From the IMG/VR virus record IMGVR_UViG_3300032116_000006: a stretch of 64,000 bases of DNA. The stretch is one strand, 5' to 3'. Of this stretch, positions 42,160-45,096 are shown piece after piece. The notes under the pieces were generated by a model that was not told where the DNA came from, did not search any database, and saw only the letters and a list, made by a program, of their open reading frames with translations. The stretch is from a virus. Its lineage: Duplodnaviria; Heunggongvirae; Uroviricota; Caudoviricetes. Position numbers and translations under genes: made by a program. Numbering within the stretch: the stretch's first letter is position 1; every line of letters begins with the position of its first letter.

Positions 42160-42217
42160 AGATGAGGCAGCAATCAAAAAGCTCTAGACATTTAATCTAA
42201 CCAGCAAACTCATCTAG
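42160..42217 (+). ncRNA. CAGCAA stem element E1
   Basis: AGATGAG/CTCATCT stem, GCAGCAA, inner TAGA-CATTTAA-TCTA hairpin. Confidence 0.6.
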
Positions 42218-42237
42218 TAACACACCACACAAAAATT

Positions 42238-42468
42238 ATGAAAACTCATAGACAACTTGAACCACATGAAGTCCAGATGGTTCAAGAGCATGTTGATTTG
42301 GAAGCACGAATTCAGCGATTTCAGCAATTCATTCAAAATCCAGGAAATGTGAATTTTTCAGAAGCTGAAATTGCTAGAATGAAAGCTCAAGAGATGGCTA
42401 TGAGCATGTATTTGAGCATCTTGAGTGATAGACTAGCTGTAGTATTTAAAGAAACTGGAAACGGTTAA
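42238..42468 (+). CDS. crAss001_48-like helical hairpin protein
   Basis: QMVQEHVDLEARIQRFQQFI...RMKAQEMAMSMYLSILSDRL. Confidence 0.6.
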   Translation: MKTHRQLEPHEVQMVQEHVDLEARIQRFQQFIQNPGNVNFSEAEIARMKAQEMAMSMYLSILSDRLAVVFKETGNG

Positions 42469-42482
42469 TTAAATACAATAAA

Positions 42483-42519
42483 AAGTTGATACAGCATCAA
42501 CAAAACAAACAATCAACTT
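42483..42519 (+). ncRNA. CAGCA stem element E2 (short)
   Basis: AAGTTGAT/ATCAACTT stem enclosing ACAGCA; abuts the SD of the DUF2828 gene. Confidence 0.5.
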
Positions 42520-42529
42520 GAGGTTAATT

Positions 42530-43993
42530 ATGACTTTTATTCAAGCTCTTAAAAGTGAATTGAATACCACTACAACTGAAAATGGCGCAAAGGCTTATAA
42601 TTCTACTACAAATGAATGCCTGGATCTTTATGGCTCAATCGGTGCATGTCGTACTAATTTGACTCATGCAGAACGTCTCTTCTTTAATGCATATGAGCAA
42701 GACCCGGAAACTGCTGTAAGAATTCTATTCTATTCAAGGGATATTCGGGGCGCAAGTCAAGGCGAACGTGCAGTGTTTAGGGCATTAATGCCGAAACTTG
42801 CACAAAAGAATCCTAAGGTAGCTTCCCGCCTAGTTTCACTGATTCCATACTACGGTCGCTGGGATGATCTCCTGTGCCTTGAAGGAACTTTGGTTTGGAC
42901 TGAGGTACTTGAGACTATCAAAACTCAACTAAATGAAGATCTTAATAGTGAGAAAGTATCGCTAGCTGCAAAATGGATGCCGAGTATCAATGCTTCTTCA
43001 AAAGAAAGCAAGCGTCTTGGTCGTCTAATTGCAGATCACATGGGCTGGTCAGAACGACAGTACCGGAAGAATCTTGCAACTCTACGAGCAAAGATTAACA
43101 TCGTAGAAACTTCAATGTGCAAAAAGGATTGGAGTTCTATTGATTATGAACGTCTTCCTTCCCGCGCTGCGATGATGTATCGCAATGCATTCAAAAAACA
43201 TGATGAGGATCGCTATTCTGAATATCTCTCTCGTGTAGAGAACGGTGAAGCAAAGATCAATACGGGAACTCTTTTTCCTTATGATATTGTGAATAAGTAT
43301 CTCTACAAAGGTTCTACCAACGATAAGACTCTTGAACAACAATGGGATGCTCTTCCTGATTATATGGAAGGTTTGGAATTCAACGGACTTGTTGTTGCTG
43401 ATGTTTCATATTCAATGACATGGAATGGGGGAATGCCAATGGCTGTATGTCTCTCTCTTGCAGTTTATATTGCTGAGCGCAATCAATCAGAGATTTGGAA
43501 AAACAAATTTCTAACTTTCTCTCAATCTCCAACACTTGAAACTATTCTAGGTAACACTATTGAAGAAAAAATCAGACATATTCTCAAATCAGATCCGGGA
43601 GGAAACACTGATCTGATGGCTACATTTAAAGTAATTCTTGATTCCGCAACTTCCAATAATGTCGCAGCAAATGATATGCCACAGAAACTGATCATTGTTT
43701 CTGATATGCAATTTGATCAGGCTTGCAGATCTAACAAGCGTACTAATTTTGAACAGATTCAAAAGCTGTATCGTAAGGCTGGTTACGAAATGCCAGAGCT
43801 AGTATTCTGGAATGTAAATGCAAGTGCTAATGTGCCTATTCAAGCTGATGACACTGGAACAGCTCTTGTTTCTGGCTGTAGTCCTGCTATTCTGAAGAGT
43901 GTTTTGAGTGGTAAAATCATATCTCCAGTAGAAGTGATGATGAATAGTCTTTATGTGGAACGCTATGATCCAATTGGACTAGCCTTTGCATAA
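42530..43993 (+). CDS. DUF2828 / TROVE-vWA-like protein
   Basis: TTENGAKAY, RDIRG..GER..F, YGRWDDLL, AAKWMPS, vWA VVADVSYSM, GGNTD, IVSDMQFD, FWNVN. Confidence 0.85.
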   Translation: MTFIQALKSELNTTTTENGAKAYNSTTNECLDLYGSIGACRTNLTHAERLFFNAYEQDPETAVRILFYSRDIRGASQGERAVFRALMPKLAQKNPKVASRLVSLIPYYGRWDDLLCLEGTLVWTEVLETIKTQLNEDLNSEKVSLAAKWMPSINASSKESKRLGRLIADHMGWSERQYRKNLATLRAKINIVETSMCKKDWSSIDYERLPSRAAMMYRNAFKKHDEDRYSEYLSRVENGEAKINTGTLFPYDIVNKYLYKGSTNDKTLEQQWDALPDYMEGLEFNGLVVADVSYSMTWNGGMPMAVCLSLAVYIAERNQSEIWKNKFLTFSQSPTLETILGNTIEEKIRHILKSDPGGNTDLMATFKVILDSATSNNVAANDMPQKLIIVSDMQFDQACRSNKRTNFEQIQKLYRKAGYEMPELVFWNVNASANVPIQADDTGTALVSGCSPAILKSVLSGKIISPVEVMMNSLYVERYDPIGLAFA

Positions 43994-44002
43994 ATAAACG
44001 GA

Positions 44003-44061
44003 AAGATGGTTCAGCAAATTTACAAAAACTGTTTTGCTATAACTGTTCCTCAAACCATCTT
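44003..44061 (+). ncRNA. CAGCAA stem element E3
   Basis: AAGATGGTT/AACCATCTT 9-bp stem followed by CAGCAA. Confidence 0.6.
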
Positions 44062-44068
44062 GTTAAAC

Positions 44069-44178
44069 CGGGAAGTAGCTCAATTGATAGAGCAACGTAA
44101 AATGGATCTTGTTAAGATCTTAACCGCATTTAAAAGCTTTGGGTGCCGTGGTTGTAGGTTTAAGTCCTACCTTCCCGA
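44069..44178 (+). tRNA. tRNA-Pro(UGG) with a 38-nt insertion in the anticodon stem
   Basis: CGGGAAG/CTTCCCG, GCTC/GAGC, GTAGG/CCTAC; removing 44098-44135 restores ACGGC-TTTGGGT-GCCGT. Confidence 0.75.
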
Positions 44179-44181
44179 TTC

Positions 44182-44220
44182 GTGGTAAGATCGTTTGAGA
44201 TTTTCTTCTTACCACTTTTC
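44182..44220 (+). terminator. Hairpin with U-tract
   Basis: GTGGTAAGA / TCTTACCAC then TTTTC. Confidence 0.5.
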
Positions 44221-44224
44221 TAAT

Positions 44225-44275
44225 TAGATGATTCAGCAATTAATCTCTTACTGCTAATAAGACCAAAATCATCTA
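44225..44275 (+). ncRNA. CAGCAA stem element E4
   Basis: TAGATGATT/AATCATCTA stem, CAGCAA, inner TCTTA-CTGCTAA-TAAGA hairpin. Confidence 0.65.
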
Positions 44276-44290
44276 GTCTAAATAATCAAA

Positions 44291-44361
44291 GCGGAGGAGT
44301 GTCACGGTAGCACGAGGGTCTCATAAGCCCTAAGAGTAAGTTCAATTCTTACCTCTCGCCA
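44291..44361 (+). tRNA. Atypical tRNA-Met(CAU)
   Basis: AGGGT-CTCATAA-GCCCT anticodon arm, GTAAG-TTCAATT-CTTAC T-arm; irregular acceptor stem. Confidence 0.65.
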
Positions 44362-44443
44362 TTGATAGATTAATCTATCATATTTTAAACCGATTTTAAA
44401 ATTACAAATGACCATTTGATCGGTATGGTTTGGGAAAAATTAA

Positions 44444-45031
44444 ATGTTTAAATCTAATCTTGTTGCAACTATTCAGGTGAATGGAATCCCACTAAGGGAA
44501 TTTGGTAGCAATGTATATCTACCATATGATACAGAATATCAAATTATGTTAAAAAATAAGACCATTCTCAGGCAAGCGGTAAGAGTTACAATTGCTGGGG
44601 AAAGTATGTGGGATGGTAGTATTGTTTTAAATGGTCGTGAAACTTTTGATTATGGTAACTTTAATAGAAATAACAAGTTTAAATTTAAAAAACTTTCTGA
44701 GAATGGATCGCATAATTATCCATTTTTATTTGAAGATTGTTTAATTATTATTCGCTTTGTTTCGGAAACTGTACCTATTATGGATTTGGATATGAATAAA
44801 AAAGCAACATATAATAAAACCGGATTTACTCCTAATGTTTCAGATTGGGAAACCGTGTGGCCTGATTCTGAAGAAACAATGTTCTTGAAGTTAAATGGAG
44901 AATTTAAACATAAACAAATTGTGGAACCAATCACAGTAAAAACGAAGATTGAATGTAAATCATGTGGAACCAAAAATCCAGCAGGGTTTGAATATTGTTC
45001 AACATGTGGAGATAAAGTTATATTCAATTAA
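44444..45031 (+). CDS. Beta-rich protein with C-terminal zinc ribbon (paralog A)
   Basis: VNGIPLREFG..VYLPY..EY.I.LKN; CKSCG...CSTCG. Confidence 0.75.
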   Translation: MFKSNLVATIQVNGIPLREFGSNVYLPYDTEYQIMLKNKTILRQAVRVTIAGESMWDGSIVLNGRETFDYGNFNRNNKFKFKKLSENGSHNYPFLFEDCLIIIRFVSETVPIMDLDMNKKATYNKTGFTPNVSDWETVWPDSEETMFLKLNGEFKHKQIVEPITVKTKIECKSCGTKNPAGFEYCSTCGDKVIFN

Positions 45032-45040
45032 TTAATAATT

Positions 45041-45096
45041 TAGATGATTCAGCAATCTTAAAACTTTCTTATTGGTTTAGAAAACAAAATCATCTA
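45041..45096 (+). ncRNA. CAGCAA stem element E5
   Basis: TAGATGATT/AATCATCTA stem, CAGCAA, inner TTTCT/AGAAA hairpin; flanks identical to E4 including GTCTAAATAA. Confidence 0.65.

What the first reader, a model, noticed from the sequence alone, without database searches (positions are those of the whole stretch)
42185..45083. Variable inner hairpins of the elements resemble tRNA anticodon arms (decoy display?)
Seen: E4 carries TCTTA-CTGCTAA-TAAGA, a 5-bp stem with a 7-nt loop identical to a Ser(GCU) anticodon loop. E1 carries TAGA-CATTTAA-TCTA, one change from the Lys loop CUUUUAA. E5 has TTTCT/AGAAA around TATTGGTTT (UGG centred). E2 has none and E3 is unclear. Established: anticodon nucleases such as PrrC and RloC recognise anticodon stem-loops. 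Inference: a constant scaffold presenting interchangeable anticodon mimics as decoys or sensors. Caveat: TGCT in E3/E4 could instead pair with the AGCA motif.
Basis: partly seen in the sequence, partly recalled or inferred. Interest (0 to 1): 0.75.

Follow-up and report, generated by a model that had tools for sequence, protein, structure and literature searches.

The report
Phage small RNAs displaying anticodon loops
A freshwater phage encodes small RNAs that share one clamp-like 'handle' and hold out look-alikes of tRNA anticodon loops next to a Ro60-shaped RNA-binding protein; relatives show the loops are kept by selection and swapped between anticodons, so they may be baits for bacterial tRNA-cutting defences, a counter-defence I did not find described in the papers searched.

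Summary
The anticodon resemblance is real. E1-E5 are stem + CAGCAA 'handle' RNAs around a DUF2828 gene whose model has the Ro60 fold. E4 is an exact Ser(GCU) arm. E1 is a Lys-like arm with A33. E3 also has a Ser(GCU)-like loop. E5's loop is 9 nt and E2 has no hairpin. In relatives, 35 of 236 short-cargo clusters close a real tRNA anticodon loop, against 1.7 in shuffles. One 5-bp stem carries seven different triplets, base 37 follows the tRNA rule (G after G36), and the E1 stem covaries. Lys and Asn loops dominate. AGCA/TGCT pairing wins in predicted folds of E3 and E4 but is not conserved in the family. Added here: the 'pseudo-tRNA' at 44069-44178 is a tRNA-Pro with the handle inserted in its anticodon stem. 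Function is untested: bait for host anticodon nucleases is my best reading (0.4); adaptor, sensor and relic readings remain. Expression and protein binding were not tested. No Rfam or literature description found; this scan noted the same system, decoy idea included, on other genomes before.

The parts
42160..42215 (+). E1: handle RNA (7-bp closing stem, CAGCAA at 42168-42173) with Lys(UUU)-like arm 42185-42199, loop 42189-42195, A at position 33
42238..42468 (+). 76-aa ORF, crAss001_48-related (PF21825); present at this place in only some relatives
42483..42519 (+). E2: handle RNA (core CAGCAT) with a 14-nt cargo and no inner hairpin; probably a deletion derivative; ends 10 nt before the DUF2828 start
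42530..43993 (+). DUF2828 + DUF7788 protein, 487 aa, predicted Ro60 fold (helical ring + vWA); likely partner of the handle
44003..44061 (+). E3: handle RNA with Ser(GCU)-like loop 44034-44040 on an interrupted stem 44027-44047; AGCA/TGCT fold is predicted to compete
44069..44178 (+). tRNA-Pro(UGG) body (C1:G72, A73) with a 38-nt insert (44098-44135) between anticodon-stem positions 29 and 30; the insert is the handle in closed, permuted form (hairpin 44104-44120, core variant CCGCAT 44124-44129); Pro loop 44138-44144
44225..44275 (+). E4: handle RNA with exact Ser(GCU) anticodon arm 44246-44262, loop 44251-44257
44291..44360 (+). tRNA-Met(CAT), somewhat irregular
45041..45096 (+). E5: handle RNA with 5-bp inner stem and 9-nt loop centred on UGG (45065-45083); degenerate member of a scaffold family that carries exact anticodon loops in relatives

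Best explanation
The elements are small RNAs of a Y-RNA-like system. The closing stem plus unpaired CAGCAA is the binding handle for the neighbouring Ro60-shaped DUF2828 protein (inferred, about 0.8). The cargo is a tRNA part. In the short members it is an anticodon arm whose shape and tRNA-like positions 32, 37 and 38 are kept by selection while the triplet changes (shown by comparison, about 0.95). The most likely use is as bait: during infection the phage makes protein-stabilised anticodon arms that cannot take part in translation and that bind or are cut by host anticodon nucleases of the PrrC, PARIS/AriB or VapC kinds, sparing real tRNAs (inferred, about 0.4 overall). Binding of the protein to CAGCAA would also suppress the AGCA/TGCT fold of E3 and E4 (inferred).
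For: Real anticodon loops on stems of 4 bp or more: 35 of 236 clusters versus 1.7 shuffled; 5.0 per kb in cargos versus 0.46 per kb in neighbouring non-coding DNA. One stem holds UGG, UUG, GCU, GUU, GUA, UGA and UAG loops; another holds UUU, CUU, GUU, GCU, GUA and UGA. G37 follows G36 in 16 of 22 arms versus 9 of 90 otherwise (Fisher p 9e-9), and in 19 of 20 versus 1 of 39 handle-bearing tRNAs. E1 family, 23 sequences: four inner pairs 100% paired with 1, 6, 14 and 8 double changes; C32 22 of 23, A37 and A38 23 of 23. Spectrum: Lys and Asn 23 of 43 versus 8% of tRNA genes; UUU 14 versus UAA plus UAU 0, so not AT drift alone. Lys(UUU), Thr(UGU) and Asn(GUU) are the AriB targets and Lys(UUU) with t6A37 the PrrC target (PMC12409363). 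PrrC cuts an isolated 17-nt arm and a stable stem inhibits it (PMC3014915); cargo stems are 24% GC versus 58% in tRNAs. Ser loops are 8 of 43, and seryl-tRNA synthetase ignores the anticodon (established knowledge), so synthetases are not the common reader. Handle within 700 nt of the gene in 77 of 127 loci, same strand, 0 opposite. Ro60 fold, TM about 0.6.
Against: No functional data, and neither transcription nor protein binding was tested. Clusters are related, so the spectrum p-values overstate independence. Most cargos are not canonical arms; T-arm, permuted-tRNA and whole-tRNA cargos need another or a wider explanation. No fMet or Arg loops among the 43 exact arms (not significant), though these are known nuclease targets. 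AriB seems to need contacts outside the anticodon arm, and PrrC needs modifications that a bare arm may not receive. U33 is lost in most of the E1 family. Nearly every tRNA is the target of some nuclease, so overlap with target lists is weak evidence. In this window only E4 is exact.
Confidence: 0.4

Rival explanations
1. Adaptor or tether: as Y RNAs tether Ro60 to PNPase, the arm recruits an anticodon-reading enzyme (RNA ligase or kinase for tRNA repair, or a position-37 modifying enzyme) to the Ro60-like ring, which handles damaged tRNAs.
For: Precedent: Y RNA tethers Ro60 to PNPase (PMC4201824); a ROT/TROVE protein is described as an RNA-repair platform in jumbo phages (PMC7824862). An RNA ligase (35630-36277) and PTH2 lie nearby. 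Base 37 and its context are the most conserved loop features, and 42 of 43 exact arms have U36, A36 or G36, the classes with a modified base 37 (class assignment from established knowledge). Permuted T-before-D cargos (21 clusters) copy the YrlA layout.
Against: A tether for one enzyme would not need many triplets that change between close relatives. No partner enzyme gene travels with the array in the loci mapped (only four query proteins were mapped).
Confidence: 0.25
2. Sensor or gate: the RNA keeps the ring closed or inactive; cleavage of the displayed loop by an activated host nuclease releases or switches on the protein.
For: Several triplets would cover several nucleases. A repair operon regulated by damaged tRNAs is known (PMC7790460, title and abstract only). 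E3 and E4 have two predicted folds, one of which hides the handle motif.
Against: The alternative fold is not conserved (TGCT 20 versus 17.1). No output domain is evident in the protein: DUF2828 and vWA only.
Confidence: 0.12
3. Relics: the handle recombines with neighbouring tRNA genes and picks up pieces, which then decay; only the handle is functional.
For: The elements lie in tRNA islands; a series runs from whole tRNA with handle to bare arm to empty cargo; E2 and E5 are degenerate.
Against: Arm stems match the cognate tRNA gene of the same locus at 1-7 of 10 positions, similar to non-cognate genes. Stems covary in place within conserved flanks. Base 37 changes together with the triplet on an unchanged stem. 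The Ser(GCU) loop of E4 recurs on another stem in mycobacteriophage MsGreen. Short patch conversion from tRNA loops is not excluded as the source of new triplets.
Confidence: 0.13
4. The hairpins are chance AT-rich folds or the real fold pairs AGCA with TGCT; the elements are processing signals or cis-regulatory switches for the tRNA transcript.
For: Lowest-energy folds of E3 and E4 pair AGCA with TGCT; elements alternate with tRNA-like genes; 68 of 320 short elements have the core paired in their lowest-energy fold.
Against: Enrichment of real anticodon loops is about 20-fold over shuffles and specific to 7-nt loops. Most triplets on the same scaffold cannot pair with AGCA. In the cyanophage subset TGCT is somewhat enriched (17 versus 9.7), but those are related copies and 13 of all 30 TGCT cases are the Ser(GCU) loop itself.
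Confidence: 0.07

Closest known systems
Ro60/Rsr with bacterial and phage Y RNAs of the YrlA type (Rfam RF02553; Chen et al. 2014, PMC4201824; phage phiLo Ro60, PMC12135203)
   Same: Ro60 fold of the adjacent protein; small RNAs next to the gene on the same strand; 5' and 3' ends paired with a short conserved motif near the 5' end; tRNA-like cargo, in 21 clusters with T before D as in YrlA.
   Different: Protein is DUF2828/DUF7788, 12-17% identical to solved Ro60s, no TROVE Pfam hit; motif is CAGCAA, not GNCGAAN(0-1)G or CGAA; many copies per genome; YrlA mimics D arm, T arm and acceptor stem, whereas these short members mimic the anticodon arm with varying triplets.
Phage tRNAs that counter tRNA-targeting defences (PMC10264068; PMC11555353; PMC12409363)
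   Same: Located in phage tRNA islands; centred on anticodon loops; Lys(UUU) and Asn(GUU) prominent.
   Different: Those are translating tRNAs that resist cleavage and replace host tRNAs; the short elements have no acceptor, D or T arm and cannot be charged. Competition with nucleases is only raised as a possibility for phage tRNAs in PMC12409363.
Class I RNAs of dictyostelid amoebae (Kjellin et al. 2021, PMC7919456)
   Same: 42-65 nt, short covarying end stem, unpaired motif next to the 5' strand, variable interior; motif positions C6, C9, A10, A11 fit CAGCAA in E1, E3, E4, E5.
   Different: T3 of the 11-nt motif is not met here; no Rfam match at E up to 10; known partner is an RRM protein; the paper reports no anticodon loops in the passages read.
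RNA decoys against CRISPR (Racr RNAs; from memory, not checked here)
   Same: Phage small RNAs that mimic a host RNA substrate to occupy a defence enzyme.
   Different: They mimic CRISPR repeats, not tRNA, and have no dedicated carrier protein.

Membership tests
YrlA-type Y RNA with Ro60 | Ro60-fold protein encoded within 4 kb on the same strand | tested here: met
   AlphaFold2 model pLDDT 92, best Foldseek hits all Ro60, E 6e-8, TM 0.60; all elements within 1.1 kb of the gene
YrlA-type Y RNA with Ro60 | Protein belongs to the TROVE family by sequence | tested here: not met
   Pfam gives DUF2828 and DUF7788 only; no PDB sequence relative
YrlA-type Y RNA with Ro60 | GNCGAAN(0-1)G motif near the 5' end | tested here: not met
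   absent from E1-E5
YrlA-type Y RNA with Ro60 | T arm, acceptor-like hairpin and D arm in permuted order; match to RF02553 | tested here: not met
   E1-E5 lack T and D arms; no Rfam match in the window or in loci with permuted cargos; the permuted order does occur in 21 relative clusters
YrlA-type Y RNA with Ro60 | RNA is expressed and bound by the protein | not testable with these tools
   needs RNA data and binding assays
tRNA anticodon arm | 5-bp stem and 7-nt loop | tested here: inconclusive
   met by E4; E1 has 4 bp; E3 has an interrupted stem; E5 has a 9-nt loop; E2 none; 7-nt loops enriched in the family (115 versus 56)
tRNA anticodon arm | Y32, U33, R37 | tested here: inconclusive
   met by E3, E4 and the Pro loop at 44138; E1 lacks U33, as do 18 of 23 E1-family members; family enrichment 67 versus 13
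tRNA anticodon arm | Base 37 depends on base 36 (G after G, otherwise A) | tested here: met
   16 of 22 versus 9 of 90, p 9e-9; Y-U-NNG-G 8 versus 0.5 shuffled
Anticodon-nuclease decoy | Binds or is cut by the nuclease and protects host tRNA | not testable with these tools
   needs biochemistry and infection tests
Dictyostelid Class I RNA | 11-nt motif with T3, C6, C9, A10, A11 and covariance-model match | tested here: not met
   T3 absent in E1-E5; no Rfam match

The most novel reading that the evidence does not exclude
Phages in many hosts carry an RNA-based counter-defence: a Ro60-like ring loaded with a retargetable library of tRNA parts, in which anticodon arms act as decoys against host anticodon nucleases and are re-aimed by changing the triplet together with base 37.
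Probability: 0.4. Interest if true: 0.88.

Novelty: new variant of a known kind. Interest (0 to 1): 0.72.

Why it matters
tRNA cleavage is a common anti-phage defence. Known phage answers are repair enzymes and resistant tRNAs. A protein-carried set of anticodon baits would be a third kind. It would also give a function to DUF2828, which has relatives in 711 phage records, and bear on the open question of what the tRNA-like parts of Y RNAs are for. It can be tested at once in cultured phages: Synechococcus phage B3 has the E1 relative with an exact Lys(CUU) loop, mycobacteriophage MsGreen has three elements behind its Ro-like gene, one with E4's loop, and the Felixounavirus JLBYU32 of E. coli K-12 has at least three.

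Tried and rejected
No genome assembly is held for the window. No RNA holder listed among sequencing runs; no conclusion on expression. Rfam: nothing but tRNA in the region at gathering score or at E up to 10. PDB sequence search: no relative. Literature searches for DUF2828 with RNA, for Ro60/phage/anticodon and for decoy/tRNA mimic found no description of these RNAs; the library lacks most subscription papers, and the supplements of Chen et al. 2014 are not held, so overlap with their 22 phage RNAs could not be checked. Reverse-complemented cargo was rejected as a control because Y-U-NNN-R-A is partly self-complementary; shuffles, loops with unpaired ends and real 7-mers were used instead. 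The Asn-like 7-mer inside the 44069-44178 insert was first read as a second anticodon; relatives show it is the closed end of the handle. The MAFFT alignment of E4/E5-type elements slipped in the U- and A-runs and was not used for pair counts. Promoter and terminator scans were at or below chance. Synthetases as common reader: disfavoured by frequent Ser loops. Ribosome decoding: disfavoured for the E1 family by loss of U33 (established knowledge of the U-turn).
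Full report
SETTING. The window is part of a T4-like phage (clamp loader, DNA polymerase, helicase, primase, NrdA), 33% GC, held by freshwater metagenomes. The closest cultured relatives of the central protein are Synechococcus phages B3 and B23 (62%, Kyanoviridae), so a cyanobacterial host is likely (inference). Five elements surround a 487-aa gene (42530-43993) with DUF2828 and DUF7788 domains. Each is a 7-9-bp closing stem, then CAGCAA (CAGCAT in E2), a variable cargo, an A-rich linker and the 3' strand. 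Rfam knows none of them.

THE OBSERVATION. E4 has a 5-bp stem and an exact Ser(GCU) loop; shuffles of its cargo give such an arm in 0.24% of cases. E1 has a 4-bp stem with a Lys(UUU) loop that has A33 in place of U33; its core G30-A31-C32 and A37-A38-U39-C40 is that of a typical anticodon arm. E2 has no hairpin. E3 has a Ser(GCU)-like loop on 3 bp, a U-U mismatch and 3 bp. The window alone is suggestive, not decisive.

FAMILY TEST. I fetched loci by the protein and by handle patterns, called elements by the handle alone, without regard to cargo, and obtained 674 elements, 433 distinct cargos and 330 clusters at 72% identity. The reference was 88 loop 7-mers seen at least three times among 1339 real tRNAs from the same loci. 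Among 236 short-cargo clusters, 35 close a real anticodon loop with 4 bp or more; dinucleotide shuffles give 1.7 (maximum 8, 0 of 200). Y-U-NNN-R loops: 67 versus 13. Loops of 7 nt: 115 versus 56; 6 nt: 73 versus 59; 8 nt: 60 versus 56. Density is 5.0 arms per kb in cargos and 0.46 in other non-coding DNA of the same loci. The cyanophage subset behaves the same way (19 of 129 versus 1.1).

INTERCHANGEABLE TRIPLETS. The stem of E5 carries 7-nt loops with UGG, UUG, GCU, GUU, GUA, UGA and UAG in relatives. The stem of E1 carries UUU, CUU, GUU, GCU, GUA and UGA, and all nine loop variants found on it are 7 nt. Base 37 changes with the triplet as in tRNA: G after G36 in 16 of 22 arms, against 9 of 90 otherwise. 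In 23 E1 relatives the four inner pairs are always paired, with 1, 6, 14 and 8 double changes; slid controls fall to 25-42% paired. C32 is kept in 22, U35 in 22, U36 in 21, A37 and A38 in all 23, but U33 in only 5. These sequences are related, so the counts are sequences, not events; seven stem variants are seen. Arm stems are not copies of the cognate tRNA gene in the same locus (1-7 of 10 positions) and are AU-rich (24% GC versus 58%).

SPECTRUM. Of 43 exact arms counted by cluster, 14 are Lys(UUU), 8 Asn(GUU), 4 Ser(GCU), 4 Ser(UGA); 30 have U36 and one has C36. The equally AT-rich UAA and UAU anticodons, which together are commoner than UUU among tRNA genes (79 versus 53), never occur. UUU sits on 12 different 4-bp stems and GUU on 7, which limits but does not remove the effect of common descent.

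THE AGCA/TGCT CAVEAT. ViennaRNA prefers it for E3 by 4 kcal/mol and for E4 by 0.8. Across clusters TGCT is at chance (20 versus 17.1), and most triplets on the same scaffold cannot form it. I read it as a side effect of the GCU anticodon that only probing can exclude for these two RNAs.

A SIXTH MEMBER. The tRNA-like gene at 44069-44178, found by Rfam but not ARAGORN, is a tRNA-Pro body. Without its 38-nt insert the anticodon stem is a perfect 5 bp around a Pro loop, and C1:G72 and A73 fit Pro. The insert is the handle with its two strands joined as a hairpin, followed by the core. I found 113 such RNAs in relatives; 59 have a U33/R37 loop at the anticodon position, often with A32, with many triplets. 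GenBank marks the one in phage B3 as a pseudo-tRNA. Long cargos also include T-arm-only (33 clusters), T-before-D (21) and D-before-T (10) forms. The handle thus carries a range of tRNA parts, of which the anticodon arm is the smallest.

THE PROTEIN. A model from 65 sequences (pLDDT 92, pTM 0.91) matches Ro60 structures best (E 6e-8, TM 0.60, 12-17% identity). PHROGs calls the family RNA-binding and some mycobacteriophage records already name it Ro-like, so the protein's likeness to Ro60 is not new. A handle lies within 700 nt of the gene in 77 of 127 protein-selected loci, always on the same strand; 31 of 49 handle-selected loci of 6 kb or more hold the gene. Binding is inferred from this and from the Y RNA precedent.

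MECHANISM. Shown: conserved handle, selected anticodon-arm shape, exchangeable triplets, linkage to a Ro60-fold gene and to tRNA islands. That fits nucleases or base-37 modifying enzymes better than synthetases or the ribosome. PrrC cuts a bare 17-nt arm and is hindered by a stable stem; AriB targets Lys(UUU), Thr(UGU) and Asn(GUU). Change of triplets between close relatives fits a conflict with hosts. I put decoy at 0.4, adaptor at 0.25, relic at 0.13, sensor at 0.12 and alternative fold or processing signal at 0.07.

NOVELTY. It works like a Ro60/Y-RNA particle but fails the YrlA membership tests (motif, model match, TROVE family). I found no description in Rfam or in the papers searched. 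This scan has reported the handle system on at least 80 other genomes and the anticodon-bait idea several times; those notes are not evidence, and my reading was formed before I saw them. Verdict: observation confirmed, interpretation partly supported, new variant of a known kind, interest 0.72.

Noticed in passing
window 44389-44429 and 45113-45155: Both paralogous zinc-ribbon genes (44444-45031, 45171-45869) have the same pseudoknot-like leader (two interleaved stems) with different letters; three relatives keep it with compensating changes in the second stem. No Rfam match. It recalls the autoregulatory pseudoknot of T4 gene 32, a zinc protein (PMC3014915); a candidate new cis-regulatory motif.
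   Followed up: partly
window 44363-45036: A related strain (run X7, contig 19) joins these positions with 22 other letters between, so it lacks the first zinc-ribbon gene and its leader.
   Followed up: no
window 44182-44215: 9-bp hairpin with a 16-nt loop between the handle-bearing tRNA-Pro and E4; role unknown.
   Followed up: no
window 35630-40535: Translation and RNA-repair genes upstream: RNA ligase (PF09414), peptidyl-tRNA hydrolase PTH2, and an EF-Ts homologue; a Dps/ferritin-like gene at 45906-46349.
   Followed up: partly
L030 3647-3747: A handle element encloses a whole tRNA with a UCA anticodon (ARAGORN: SeC, 3666-3739).
   Followed up: no
L279 5852-6477 and 187-276 (minus strand): ROOL RNA and part of an OLE RNA lie in the same tRNA island as seven handle elements.
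   Followed up: no
L313 (CP089923.1, Nodosilinea sp. MAG chromosome): A cyanobacterial chromosome holds a 60%-identical DUF2828 gene followed by one handle element; prophage remnant or host copy not examined.
   Followed up: no
L459 4806-4923 and L481 3637-3753 (minus strand): Other tRNA-like RNAs of about 118 nt with a different, GC-rich multi-hairpin insert in the anticodon region and no CAGCAA core.
   Followed up: no
window 48366-50685: Five paralogous 117-138-aa ORFs starting MKISK/MKIST in near-tandem; family not identified.
   Followed up: no
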